DNA from: Escherichia coli
GTDB taxonomy: Bacteria > Pseudomonadota > Gammaproteobacteria > Enterobacterales > Enterobacteriaceae
Direction: 5' to 3' (one strand)
Length of the DNA stretch: 64,000 nucleotides
NCBI RefSeq assembly: GCF_001677475.2
Contig: NZ_CP015229.1
The stretch's first letter is position 1. The number at the start of each line of letters is the position of its first letter. Made by a program: the position numbers. Shown here in pieces: positions 18,001 to 21,000 of the stretch.

Positions 18001-21000
18001 TATCAGAAAGGAAAAAACTTCAAGATACAAATGAAGTTCATACCATAGTTGATAAATTACAAAAACATAATGTCCTTTTTGCCCTCGATGATTTTGGAGT
18101 AGAATATTCTACATTTCATTATTTACAGGATTACTCTGTTGATTTTATTAAGCTGGATAAATCTTTCATCCAACAGTGTGAATCAAATAAAATATCCGAA
18201 GCAATAGTAGATAGTATAGCTATGTTGGCAAAACGATTACATATTAAGGTCGTTGCTGAAGGTATCGAAACTATAGAGCAGGCAAAAGCCATGAAAAATA
18301 AAGGAATAGAATATTTGCAAGGGTATCTTTTTTCACCACCTGTATCTGGAGATGTTTTTATTCATAAATGGATTTTGTCAACCGAAAAAAGGAGCAATTA
18401 GATGTGTGATTCATAGGCATCGTTTCAATTTTCTCAGTCCAAGTTCAAGCTTGTAATTCTGTTCCTGTATATGCTCTTCATTGGGCGATAGTTTGCATGA
18501 ACGGCATCAGAGTATGGTGTTTTCTCAGCAAGTTCAAAGTAGCGTTCCATCGGAGTTTTACCGTTGTGAGCGCTATGAGGACGTTCCCAGTTATAGTAAT
18601 GCTGCCATTCTGCCTGCAGTTCCTTCAGGTCATCAGCAGAAAGATCTACGGTAGCGTAAAACTCAGCTTTGTCTGTCTTTTGGGAACGTTCAACCTTTCC
18701 GTTAAGATGAGGCGACGCTGGCTTATTTGGACGAAACTTGATGCCGTATTCTTTTAATCTTTCCTGCACTTTAACGGCAAAAAATACTCTTCCCCGGTCT
18801 GTCTGAAAGCGCTGTATCGGGAAAGGCATTTCTTCAATAACACAATCAATAAAATCCAGTGTGTTTGCCGCCGTGCGACGAGAGTAGAGCCTCAGGACTC
18901 TGTAGCGAGTGCAATCATCAATAGATGTGTACTGATATAAGCCGGGGCCAATTTTACAGGTATCCATCTGAACCCGATCACCGGTTATTGGGCGCTCTCC
19001 GTTCATGAAAATACGCATAAGCCCGGCGTCAAAGAGCAAATCACCGAAATGGCGTTCAACGGAGCAGGTGTCCGCGATACCGAAGGACTGTGTAGAGCCA
19101 ATAAAGTTGTGCCCTTTAAGTGGAAAAGACTTTAAAGTTGCACTAATTATTCTATTTAACTAAAAAAAACATAAAGTTAAGCACATATAACTCTATGTTT
19201 TTAACAGTATCTGTAGCCCTACTCTTCTGATGCTCATTCCTTTTGAGGCTCTAGACGCCATAAGTTAATATTTCTGAGGCTTGCAGCTTAGGGATACACC
19301 AACCAAAAAACAAATATATATCAATAACATAAGAAATACCTAGTACCTTAAATTAAATGTTCACTGTACCTTTTCCAGCCGCTTGAACAGCGCACGGTAA
19401 AGTGATAGCTTCAAAATATTGTTATCACTTTAGGATCAATCTCATGGCGAATGCTGTGGTTGCAGGCTGGCAGGGACACGATTATCAGGCTCGCTTATTC
19501 TGGTATTACGCATCTTTTTTGAAAGACAGAACCCGGTCAGATGTCATTGAAGTGTCTTATGAAGCAGATGCGCCTAAGTCATTTGATGACGTAGTTGCTA
19601 AATATCATCCTCCAAGACCTGGCTATGGTTCCGAACGCATCGCCGCAGAGTACTTCCAGATCAAATACCATGTTGTCTCAGGCGGTCGATTCGGATATGA
19701 AGATTTGGTTGATCCCGAATTCATCAACGCACAATCCAAATCTTTACTTCAACGCCTCAAAGAAGCAAAAACCATAGCCGTTCCAAATTCTTCTTTTATT
19801 CTGGTTACTACCGATACTATCCGAGATAACGACCAGCTGGGAAAAATCCACCAAAACACTGATGGTTCTCTGGATTTGGGTAAACTTGCCGTTGGCAAAA
19901 CCGACAGAAGCGAGATGGGCAAAGTCAGGAAGCTGTGGCGCGACCATCTTGAGCTGAGTAATGATGAAGACCTTTATGAGATCCTCCGGGGATTTCGAAT
20001 TGAGGCGCCTGCGTCTTCACTCGAGCGTCTGCGTACAAATGCCAATATGCAGTTCAAATTTGTCGGAATGATGCCTTGTGAAACCAACTCCGATTTTCGT
20101 TATGACGGCCTGATACGAACACTGAAAGGTCAGGGCAAATATCAATTTAACCGTACTCAGTTTGAAGAGATGTGTGTAGCGGAAAGGCTATTACAATCAT
20201 GCCCTGTGGAGGAGTACAACGCTGTAGCACTTCGCTCGTACAGAGATGGCCCATTTGAAACACTGGACGCATCTCCGGAAAATACCCTTTCACTCCTGCA
20301 ATATTTTGAGGGAAGGTTTCCTGCTCCAGGCATAGAGTGGATGGACTCAATTCAACCTGTCGTAACAGACTTCCTTGAAAAAATCAGGCAATCTCAAAGG
20401 GGAAAAAGAATCAGACTTTTTCTCGATGCGCACACCTCTATTGCTATGCTTGCCGGTAAATGTCTCGGAGCTAAGTCAAACGTAACTGTTGAGTTAGTGC
20501 AGAAAGGAAAGGCTTCAACGTCAGTATGGAACGCCAATGACGGCGGCGAAATTCGCCCCACAACTGTCAGTACAGAGACTCCTGGTGAAGGCCATGACGT
20601 TGCAATTGTCCTCAGTATTACAAGGAATGCCCTGGCAGACGCACGGGATTATATTGCGGCAAACCTGCCAGGTGTCGGTCGAATTTTACACTTTGTCCCC
20701 GAAAACGGATTTGGTTTTCAGTCGATAACAAGCGGTGCCCATGCATCCGACGTTGCGGAAACTGTTGCACGAGCTTTCGGTGAAGCCCGGGTTCCATTTG
20801 GGGCAACAGTACATATTTTTAGTGCAGCCCCTAATGCCGTTAATTTCTTTGTCGGGCAGCAAACAGACTATATGGGAACCTGCGTTTTTTACGAGTATGA
20901 CTTTAATCGTCAGGTCCATGCCTCATATGCTCCTTCATTCAGGGTTTAATCACGATGGAACTTAATCCGCAATTTAATGAATTCTTAACAAAGATCAGAC

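What the first reader, a model, noticed from the sequence alone, without database searches (positions are those of the whole stretch)
19088..19190. Internal second copy of the transposon left end abutting a truncated transposase
About 100 bp at 19088-19190 is near-identical to the outer left end at 6290-6392 and shares TGTGTAGAGCCAATAAAGTTGTGCCC with the right terminus, but lacks the GCAAT flank. It directly abuts a 5'-truncated rve transposase fragment. This suggests a composite history: a smaller element (19088-38424, CBASS plus tns genes) next to remnants of another (6290-~19085, adhesin/recombinase module), mobilised together using the outer ends.
Basis: partly seen in the sequence, partly recalled or inferred. 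Interest (0 to 1): 0.55.

Follow-up and report, generated by a model that had tools for sequence, protein, structure and literature searches.

The report
Spare left end inside composite Tn7-like transposon
The repeat is a real, intact second left end of a Tn7-like transposon, left inside a 32-kb island where a CBASS-carrying element fused onto a decayed tib-adhesin element; the fused island still moves as one unit on its outer ends, which is a known kind of event in this transposon family.

Summary
The core observation holds. Window 19089-19192 is a direct repeat of the outer left end 6290-6392 (97/104 identical, blastn E 1e-37). It has the TGT tip and the same three TnsB-type repeats, which cluster only at these two sites and at the right end.

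Two details need correcting. The copy abuts about 74 bp of an IS1-family insA fragment, not the IS481 (rve) fragment, which lies one step further left. The right terminus shares only TGT plus CAATAAAGTTGTGCCC with it.

The island 6290-38424 is a Tn7-like transposon (TnsA, TnsB, TnsC, TnsD and a second TniQ protein) at the yhiN site. In E. coli Rb-50 the same tib module (98-99% identical) has the IS1 running uninterrupted through the junction point, followed by tnsB'/tnsA only 82-94% identical. So the stretch from the internal end to the right end belongs to a second element.

The decisive result is a second copy of the whole composite. It sits at 99.8-99.98% identity, with homology ending exactly at both outer tips, in a Salmonella IncHI1B plasmid. 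There it is flanked by a different 5-bp duplication (CCACC), and the reconstructed empty site is intact in 220 related plasmids. The outer ends therefore mobilise the composite.

No solo smaller element was found anywhere searched. This is a new member of a known kind, of modest interest.

The parts
6285..6289 (.). Left copy of the 5-bp target-site duplication GCAAT at the yhiM-yhiN site
   Evidence: The same GCAAT flanks the pco/sil element and the Rb-50 and DS26-1 islands.
6290..6392 (+). Outer left end (L1): TGT tip plus three TnsB-type repeats at about 6299, 6330 and 6368. This is the end actually used in transposition.
   Evidence: It is the exact homology boundary in the plasmid copy.
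6393..7613 (-). IS3-family insertion sequence (40-nt terminal inverted repeats, no target duplication) directly after L1. L1/L2 homology ends at its edge.
7835..18401 (+). tib cargo module: two FimB/E-like tyrosine invertases, AraC-type, CaiF/GrlA and LuxR-type regulators, TibC heptosyltransferase (11805-13025), TibA-like autotransporter (13018-16740), small LuxR-type HTH protein, EAL phosphodiesterase (17592-18401)
18434..19014 (-).
19015..19088 (+). Internal fragment of an IS1-family insA gene (about nt 200-275 of the IS). Its last 5 nt, AGGAC, are the flank of the internal end. The IS1 is uninterrupted at this point in Rb-50.
   Evidence: (PF12759)
19089..19192 (+). Internal left end (L2), the finding: TGT tip plus three TnsB-type repeats (19102, 19133, 19172), 93% identical to L1. 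Its first repeat is identical to that of the right end.
19444..23932 (+). Type II CBASS: Cap4 SAVED-endonuclease effector (19444-20949), CD-NTase (20955-22100), Cap2 E1/E2 (22097-23932, with its 3' end running into IS66)
23898..26402 (+). IS66-family element specific to this window (8-bp duplication 23890-23897 / 26403-26410). It splits the Cap2 end from the Cap3 start.
26417..26890 (+). Cap3 (JAB) remnant lacking its first ~20 codons (~15 profile positions)
28567..29522 (-). IS256-family transposase fragments
29764..30210 (-). Xre/ParS-type antitoxin of a RES-Xre toxin-antitoxin pair. It is truncated in DS26-1-type islands.
31331..32272 (-). Second TniQ-domain protein, a possible alternative target selector
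32273..33844 (-). TnsD/TniQ target selector
   Evidence: PF06527, PF15978
33869..35314 (-). TnsC AAA+ ATPase
35311..37437 (-). TnsB transposase
   Evidence: Tn7 TnsB 7pik, E 1.4e-46, near full length
37424..38278 (-). TnsA endonuclease
   Evidence: PF08722
38300..38424 (-). Right end with TnsB-type repeats at 38411, 38391 and about 38365, ending ...GAACA
   Evidence: It is the exact homology boundary in the plasmid copy.
38425..38429 (.). Right copy of the 5-bp duplication GCAAT
38409..39611 (-). yhiN, the attachment-site gene. Its last codons and stop codon lie inside the right end.

Best explanation
Positions 19089-19192 are the intact left end of a second, self-sufficient yhiN-targeting Tn7-like transposon. 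That element runs from the internal end through CBASS, RES-Xre, a second TniQ gene and tnsDCBA to the right end at 38424. Its tip was joined by its transposase to a point inside an IS1 fragment. The IS1 fragment belonged to an older, crippled Tn7-like element that carries the tib adhesin locus and the outer left end. The older element's own tns genes and right end are gone from this lineage. The result is a 32-kb composite with two left ends in the same orientation and one right end. TnsABC of the younger element, with TnsD for yhiN and probably another selector for plasmids, pairs the outer left end with the right end and moves everything between them. The internal end rides along as cargo. 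Shown here: the anatomy of the end, the two-lineage origin, the order of events at the IS1 junction, and use of the outer pair in a natural transposition. Inferred: the route by which the two elements were joined. I favour nested insertion into the IS1 followed by an outer-end hop, over tandem insertion at yhiN followed by transposase-made deletion of about 2.2 kb. Also inferred: that the internal end remains usable.
For: The end architecture is repeated. It has the same TGT tip and three TnsB-type repeats with the same spacing, and these motifs cluster only at 6303/6334/6372, 19102/19133/19172 and 38411/38391. The core genes are present: TnsA, TnsB, TnsC, TnsD. In Rb-50 the IS1 continues about 500 bp past the junction to its own end and then meets a truncated tnsB. 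That arrangement must be the older state. Rb-50 versus the window: tib-module flanks 98-99.4% identical, chromosome 98-100%, but tnsB'/tnsA 82-94% and a visibly different right end. L1 and L2 differ by 6.7%, whereas independent copies of the composite differ by 0.2% or less. So L2 is not a recent duplication of L1. The plasmid copy shows homology to window 6290-38424 ending exactly at both tips, flanked by CCACC on both sides. The rebuilt empty site matches 100% over 500 nt in IncHI plasmids, with 220 records covering at least 80%. The same IS1'|L2 junction is present in every context read for the exact Cap4 protein, which is listed in 584 collection blocks.
Against: No stand-alone element bounded by the internal end and the right end was found. 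The searches covered 5,426 complete E. coli genomes, 72,556 plasmids, about 100,000 species-representative genomes and JGI metagenomes. Neither the reciprocal junction expected after a nested insertion (right end-AGGAC-rest of IS1) nor a tandem junction was found. Only one genome (Rb-50) documents the pre-fusion state, and its tns genes could themselves be secondary. Tn7-type target immunity should disfavour insertion into or beside a resident element with nearly identical ends (Correa 2024, PMC11014353, for Tn6022; established for Tn7).
Confidence: 0.85

Rival explanations
1. Route variant: tandem then deletion. The CBASS element first inserted normally at the yhiN site beside the resident tib element, giving ...R1-GCAAT-L2.... 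A transposase-made intramolecular event then joined the L2 tip to the IS1 and deleted about 2.2 kb (rest of IS1, tnsB', tnsA, R1). That event could be inside-out use of R1 and L2, or replicative one-ended attack. Only afterwards did the composite hop to a plasmid.
For: Rb-50 shows a resident tib element at yhiN in which only about 2.2 kb separates the IS1 point from the att site. GCAAT at both outer borders follows naturally from two insertions at one site. The exact joint at the L2 tip needs transposase chemistry.
Against: It needs one more rare event than the nested route. No tandem junction was seen in any collection. Inside-out or replicative events are not documented for TnsA-containing elements of this family (own knowledge).
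Confidence: 0.25
2. Internal recombination: the CBASS element inserted into the IS1, and homologous recombination between its tns genes and the resident's tns genes then deleted the material between them. No composite transposition would be needed.
For: The two tns sets would be direct repeats about 90% identical, which is a possible recombination substrate.
Against: This predicts a right-proximal segment of the Rb-50 type. In fact the window differs from Rb-50 through the sampled tnsB', tnsA and the right-end repeats (82-94%; tip CAAAAACAAT versus CAAAGATAAT), and switches to 98-100% only in yhiN. It also does not explain the plasmid copy.
Confidence: 0.04
3. The inner pair (19089...38424) is the only live transposon, and the outer left end is a dead relic that merely lies next to it.
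For: The first TnsB repeat of the internal end is identical to that of the right end (GTGCCC), whereas the outer end has GTATCC. The inverted-repeat match is 82% for the inner pair against 78% for the outer pair.
Against: The plasmid insertion is bounded by the outer end and carries a matching 5-bp duplication. No insertion bounded by the internal end exists in any collection searched.
Confidence: 0.03
4. Chance or generic repeat, or an assembly artefact.
For: None.
Against: E 1e-37. The motif architecture is conserved. The junction is identical in independent assemblies, including closed plasmids. L1-type sequences occur only at transposon borders in E. coli.
Confidence: 0.01

Closest known systems
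Tn7-like transposons of the yhiN/yhiM hotspot in E. coli (called Tn6230 in Hochhauser et al. 2023, PMC10121019), including the pco/sil copper-silver element
   Same: Same attachment site and orientation (right end next to yhiN) and the same GCAAT duplication. Same tnsA-B-C-D core. The left-end tip is related: 52 nt at 87% identity in 677 genomes.
   Different: tns genes are only about 78-81% identical to the common pco/sil element. The cargo is different (tib plus CBASS). This island carries a second, internal left end. Identity with the Tn6230 reference itself was not tested.
Multi-ended Tn6022/AbaR islands in Acinetobacter (Correa et al. 2024, PMC11014353) and tandem islands at attTn7 (own knowledge: Parks and Peters)
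   Same: Related Tn7-like elements pile up at or in each other. The islands have several left or right ends, and the cited authors propose that sub-combinations can leave as new elements.
   Different: A different family, att site and host. Here one specific sub-combination (outer left end plus right end) is caught in a natural second insertion with an intact empty site. The extra end sits in an IS1 fragment.
IS-bounded compound transposons (Tn10, Tn5)
   Same: Outer ends move everything between them, and inner ends are carried along and can in principle be used in alternative events (own knowledge).
   Different: The ends here are asymmetric Tn7-type ends served by a heteromeric TnsAB transposase. 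There is a single right end, so only two end pairs are possible.
tib locus of ETEC H10407
   Same: The cargo invertase-CaiF-LuxR-tibC-tibA is 95.7% identical.
   Different: In H10407 it lies at another chromosomal position, and no L1-type end was detected in that genome.

Membership tests
Tn7-like transposon (the island 6290-38424) | TnsA-type endonuclease | tested here: met
   PF08722, E 1.4e-14
Tn7-like transposon (the island 6290-38424) | TnsB transposase homologous to Tn7 TnsB | tested here: met
   phmmer against Tn7 TnsB 7pik, E 1.4e-46 over residues 8-659. Pfam-A itself gave no rve hit.
Tn7-like transposon (the island 6290-38424) | TnsC-type AAA+ regulator | tested here: met
   AAA_22 2e-18, TniB 4e-9
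Tn7-like transposon (the island 6290-38424) | TniQ/TnsD target selector | tested here: met
   PF06527 and PF15978 on the 517-aa product. The second TniQ-domain protein scores E 1.7e-4 and 3.5e-7.
Tn7-like transposon (the island 6290-38424) | TGT...ACA tips with several TnsB-binding repeats, arranged differently at left and right | tested here: met
Tn7-like transposon (the island 6290-38424) | 5-bp target-site duplication | tested here: met
   GCAAT at yhiN. CCACC on the IncHI1B plasmid, with an intact empty site.
Tn7-like transposon (the island 6290-38424) | Site- and orientation-specific insertion next to a conserved gene | tested here: met
   The right end lies in the 3' end of yhiN in the window, Rb-50, DS26-1 and all long contigs read for TnsA.
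Tn6230 (named element) | Sequence identity with the Tn6230 reference | not tested
   No reference sequence was available. Only the literature statement that yhiN/yhiM elements in E. coli are Tn6230-type.
Functional transposon left end (19089-19192) | Terminal TGT and a full set of TnsB repeats in register with a proven end | tested here: met
   97/104 identical to L1, which the plasmid copy shows is sufficient for transposition with only 103 bp before the IS3 element.
Functional transposon left end (19089-19192) | Flanked by a 5-bp duplication shared with the right end | tested here: not met
   AGGAC versus GCAAT. It was not the end used in the last insertion.
Functional transposon left end (19089-19192) | Found as the border of independent insertions | tested here: not met
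   No solo copy in E. coli genomes, plasmids, species representatives or metagenomes.
Multi-ended composite Tn7-like island | Two like ends in the same orientation derived from distinct element lineages | tested here: met
   L1 and L2 are 6.7% diverged. The Rb-50 comparison supports two lineages.
Multi-ended composite Tn7-like island | A sub-combination of ends demonstrably transposes | tested here: met
   Outer left end plus right end, on the plasmid.

The most novel reading that the evidence does not exclude
The internal end is not just a scar. It would make the island a two-in-one transposon: the same transposase can release either the whole 32-kb unit (adhesin plus defence) or the 19-kb defence-plus-transposase core. 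Alternatively, TnsB binding at the internal end could tune transposition frequency or target immunity. Its formation would also be a natural case of a Tn7-like element entering a relative with near-identical ends despite target immunity.
Probability: 0.15. Interest if true: 0.5.

Novelty: new member of a known kind. Interest (0 to 1): 0.35.

Why it matters
It gives a clean natural example of how Tn7-like islands grow. A live element fuses onto a dead relative, adopts its far end, and then carries both cargos: an ETEC adhesin/invasin locus and an anti-phage CBASS system. The composite moves between the E. coli yhiN site and a conjugative IncHI1B plasmid in epidemic monophasic Salmonella. For annotation, it warns that border-finding tools which stop at the first left end would cut this island in half. 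Mechanistically it adds little beyond what is described for Tn6022/AbaR and attTn7 islands.

Tried and rejected
(1) Solo element. I searched for it with an L1/L2 42-nt degenerate pattern and a 22-nt tip pattern in species-representative genomes, and found 0 hits. An L2-specific 32-mer in JGI metagenomes gave 0 hits. The 22-nt tip pattern in JGI metagenomes gave one hit, and it is just L1 in the usual tib context.

(2) CBASS as a tracer. Its relatives (78-92% nt) sit in unrelated islands: an integrase island near gorA, a Rahnella ICE, and Klebsiella and Salmonella loci. Homology starts only at about 19344-19400 and no Tn end lies nearby. So CBASS is portable cargo and not diagnostic.

(3) Reciprocal junction. 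I searched for right end-AGGAC-rest of IS1 in E. coli genomes and found none.

(4) Continuation of L1 past the IS3 element. I looked for L2-like sequence after it. There is none: the IS3 has no duplication and is followed by an IS66-like end remnant.

(5) The tns-tns homologous recombination model was rejected from the identity profile.

(6) A shared plasmid att site with the pco/sil element was rejected because the flanks differ.

(7) An exact-protein look-up of the 183-aa recombinase, meant to find further insertion sites, returned only yhiM contexts.

Full report
**Observation**

Window 6290-6392 and 19089-19192 form a direct repeat with 97/104 identical positions (six substitutions and one extra A). 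The blastn E-value is 1.4e-37. It is the only long direct repeat in 5500-39500 apart from the internal repeats of the autotransporter gene.

Both copies start with TGTGTAG and carry three repeats of the type nTAAAGTTGnnCC at the same spacing. A motif scan finds such repeats clustered only at 6303/6334/6372, at 19102/19133/19172 and, on the other strand, at 38411/38391. The outer copy is preceded by GCAAT (6285-6289), and the right tip (...GAACA, 38424) is followed by GCAAT (38425-38429). The internal copy is preceded by AGGAC.

Two details in the finding are wrong:
- **Right terminus.** It reads TGTTCAAAAACAATAAAGTTGTGCCC, so it shares only TGT and a 16-mer with the internal copy.
- **What the copy abuts.** It is not the rve fragment. 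The IS481-family fragment (minus strand, NCBIfam IS481 positions 123-284 of 284) ends near 19014. The last ~74 bp before the copy are an internal piece of an IS1-family insA gene on the plus strand (...ITEMAFNGAGVRDTEG). This is shown by alignment with a full IS1 variant and with E. coli Rb-50, and by a Pfam HTH_Tnp_IS1 hit on the ORF that spans it.

**What the island is**

The region 6290-38424 is a Tn7-like transposon inserted in the 3' end of yhiN, with its right end next to the gene. Its core genes are:
- TnsA, PF08722.
- TnsB, matching Tn7 TnsB 7pik at E 1.4e-46 over nearly full length, although Pfam-A itself gave no hit.
- TnsC, AAA_22/TniB.
- TnsD, TniQ plus TnsD domains.
- A second small TniQ-domain protein.

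The yhiM-yhiN interval is a documented hotspot for Tn7-like elements in E. coli (PMC10121019). The common pco/sil element uses the same position and the same GCAAT.

- **Left half of the cargo:** the tib locus, with two FimB/E-like invertases, regulators, TibC, a TibA-like autotransporter and an EAL protein.
- **Right half of the cargo:** a type II CBASS (Cap4 SAVED-endonuclease, CD-NTase, Cap2, Cap3), a conserved 223-aa protein, IS256 debris and a RES-Xre antitoxin.
- **Window-specific insertion:** an IS66 element at 23898-26402 with an 8-bp duplication interrupts the Cap2/Cap3 overlap.

**Two elements, not one**

E. coli DS26-1 and five similar complete genomes carry the same island at yhiN. 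It is 99.9% identical over 6904-19070 and 99.2% over 29968-44658. An IS629-like element replaces 19071-29967 and cuts the antitoxin gene. This is a later deletion derivative.

E. coli Rb-50 is the informative relative. It has the same outer left end, IS3, tib module and IS481'/'IS1 joint. There the IS1 runs on for about 500 bp to its own terminal repeat and then meets a truncated tnsB. An IS1 cannot be restored once truncated, so the Rb-50 state at this point is the older one.

Identity to the window varies sharply along the Rb-50 island:
- 98-99.4% in the tib-module flanks (94-96% in tibC/tibA).
- 98-100% in the chromosome to the right.
- 82.5-94.4% in tnsB'/tnsA, with several differences in the right-end repeats.

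The switch back to chromosomal-level identity falls at the transposon border. L1 and L2 differ by 6.7%, while independent copies of the whole composite differ by 0.2% or less. Together this shows that 19089-38424 is a related but distinct element that replaced the right part of a decayed tib element. It also shows that the internal copy is that element's own left end, not a recent duplication.

**The composite is a mobile unit**

The exact Cap4 protein is listed in 584 blocks of the assembly collection. Every context read has the same IS1'|L2 joint at 99.9% identity or better.

Five Salmonella enterica 4,[5],12:i:- IncHI1B conjugative plasmids (for example p08-4425.1, NZ_CP039559.1) carry the island. 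Alignment shows homology to the window from exactly 6290 to exactly 38424, at 99.8-99.98%. The plasmid copy lacks the IS66 and has an extra IS3-family insertion in the IS481 fragment.

On the plasmid the outer left end is preceded by CCACC and the right end is followed by CCACC. A query built from 250 nt of left flank, one CCACC and 250 nt of right flank matches 100% over its full length in IncHI plasmids. 220 records cover at least 80% of it, and pHCM1 matches at 99.8%.

This is a simple insertion of the whole composite with a new 5-bp duplication. The transposase therefore used the outer left end and the right end, and carried the internal end as cargo. It also shows that 103 bp of left end ahead of the IS3 element is enough for transposition.

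**How the fusion arose (inferred)**

The exact joint between the L2 tip and a random internal IS1 position needs transposase chemistry.

- **Route 1, favoured at about 55%.** The CBASS element inserted into the IS1 of a resident tib element. The outer left end plus the new right end then transposed away, leaving the rest behind.
- **Route 2, about 25%.** The CBASS element inserted in tandem at the yhiN site. An intramolecular event then joined L2 to the IS1 and deleted about 2.2 kb.
- **Route 3, rejected.** Nested insertion followed by tns-tns homologous recombination. The window differs from Rb-50 through the sampled tnsB', tnsA and the right tip.

Neither precursor junction was found. Both surviving routes must overcome target immunity (PMC11014353; established for Tn7).

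GCAAT at yhiN cannot discriminate between routes, because every yhiN insertion has it.

**What was not found**

No element bounded by the internal end and the right end alone was found. The searches covered 5,426 complete E. coli genomes, 72,556 plasmids, species-representative genomes and JGI metagenomes.

The CBASS cassette occurs in unrelated islands elsewhere, and its homology begins only at about 19344. So 19089-19343 is transposon-specific sequence seen only in this composite.

**Comparison and verdict**

Islands with several Tn7-type ends, internal insertions and mobile sub-combinations are described for Tn6022/AbaR (PMC11014353) and for attTn7 islands (own knowledge). CBASS and nested insertion sequences are common Tn7-like cargo (PMC8649781).

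I found no description of this particular tib-plus-CBASS composite or of its plasmid copy. Only genome announcements mention the plasmid.

It is a new member of a known kind. Interest is modest.

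Noticed in passing
window 23898-26402 (duplication 23890-23897 / 26403-26410): An IS66-family element is present only in this window's copy. It sits in the Cap2/Cap3 overlap, so Cap3 (26417-26890) lacks its first ~20 codons (~15 profile positions) and the Cap2 reading frame runs into the IS. The CBASS system here may be deregulated or dead.
   Followed up: partly
window 31331-32272 (minus strand): The conserved 308/313-aa protein just downstream of tnsD has a weak TniQ domain (Pfam E 1.7e-4; PADLOC TniQ 3.5e-7). It may be a second target selector and could account for the non-yhiN insertion in the IncHI1B plasmid.
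   Followed up: partly
window 6393-7613 and 7727-7755: The IS3-family element directly after the outer left end has 40-nt terminal inverted repeats but no target duplication. It is followed by a sequence resembling an IS66-type terminal repeat (83% to 26374-26402). The original interior of the outer left arm has been overwritten, which is why L1/L2 homology stops exactly at 6392.
   Followed up: partly
window 7813-7824 and 19183-19194: The 12-mer ACATATAACTCT spans the end of L2 homology and recurs 200 bp right of the IS3 element, just upstream of the first invertase gene. It could be chance or a trace of the original L1 arm. Unexplained.
   Followed up: no
window 7762-7784 and 11513-11535: A 23-nt direct repeat (22/23 identical) brackets the two FimB/E-like invertases and the regulators upstream of tibC. 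These are possible recombinase sites or shared regulatory boxes for phase-variable tib expression.
   Followed up: no
L034 1495-1500 (E. coli plasmid pEC361_1) versus window 19084-19088: The pco/sil Tn7-like element on an IncHI2 plasmid has the same 5 nt, AGGAC, next to its left tip as the internal end has in the window. It may be coincidence (about 1 in 1000) or a target preference of the non-TnsD pathway.
   Followed up: no
L002 16638-17945; L026; L003, L005-L008 and L021: The island is being eroded by insertion sequences in different strains. An IS629-like element deletes 19071-29967 in DS26-1-type genomes. In L026 an IS3-family element appears to join tnsB to the EAL gene (inferred from gene order only). 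Many copies, including the plasmid, have an IS3-family insertion at window-equivalent 18885-18887.
   Followed up: partly
window 28567-30210: The RES-Xre module has an intact antitoxin (29764-30210). The position where the toxin should lie is occupied by IS256 transposase fragments.
   Followed up: no
window 38409-38424: The last five codons and the stop codon of yhiN are supplied by the transposon right end, so insertion rewrites the C-terminus of the att-site protein.
   Followed up: no
H233 (ETEC H10407, NC_017633.1 2296391-2300035): The prototype tib locus of H10407 is 95.7% identical to the cargo here but lies at a different chromosomal position, and no L1-type end was detected in that genome. 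The tib cassette was therefore captured by, or released from, the Tn7-like element.
   Followed up: no
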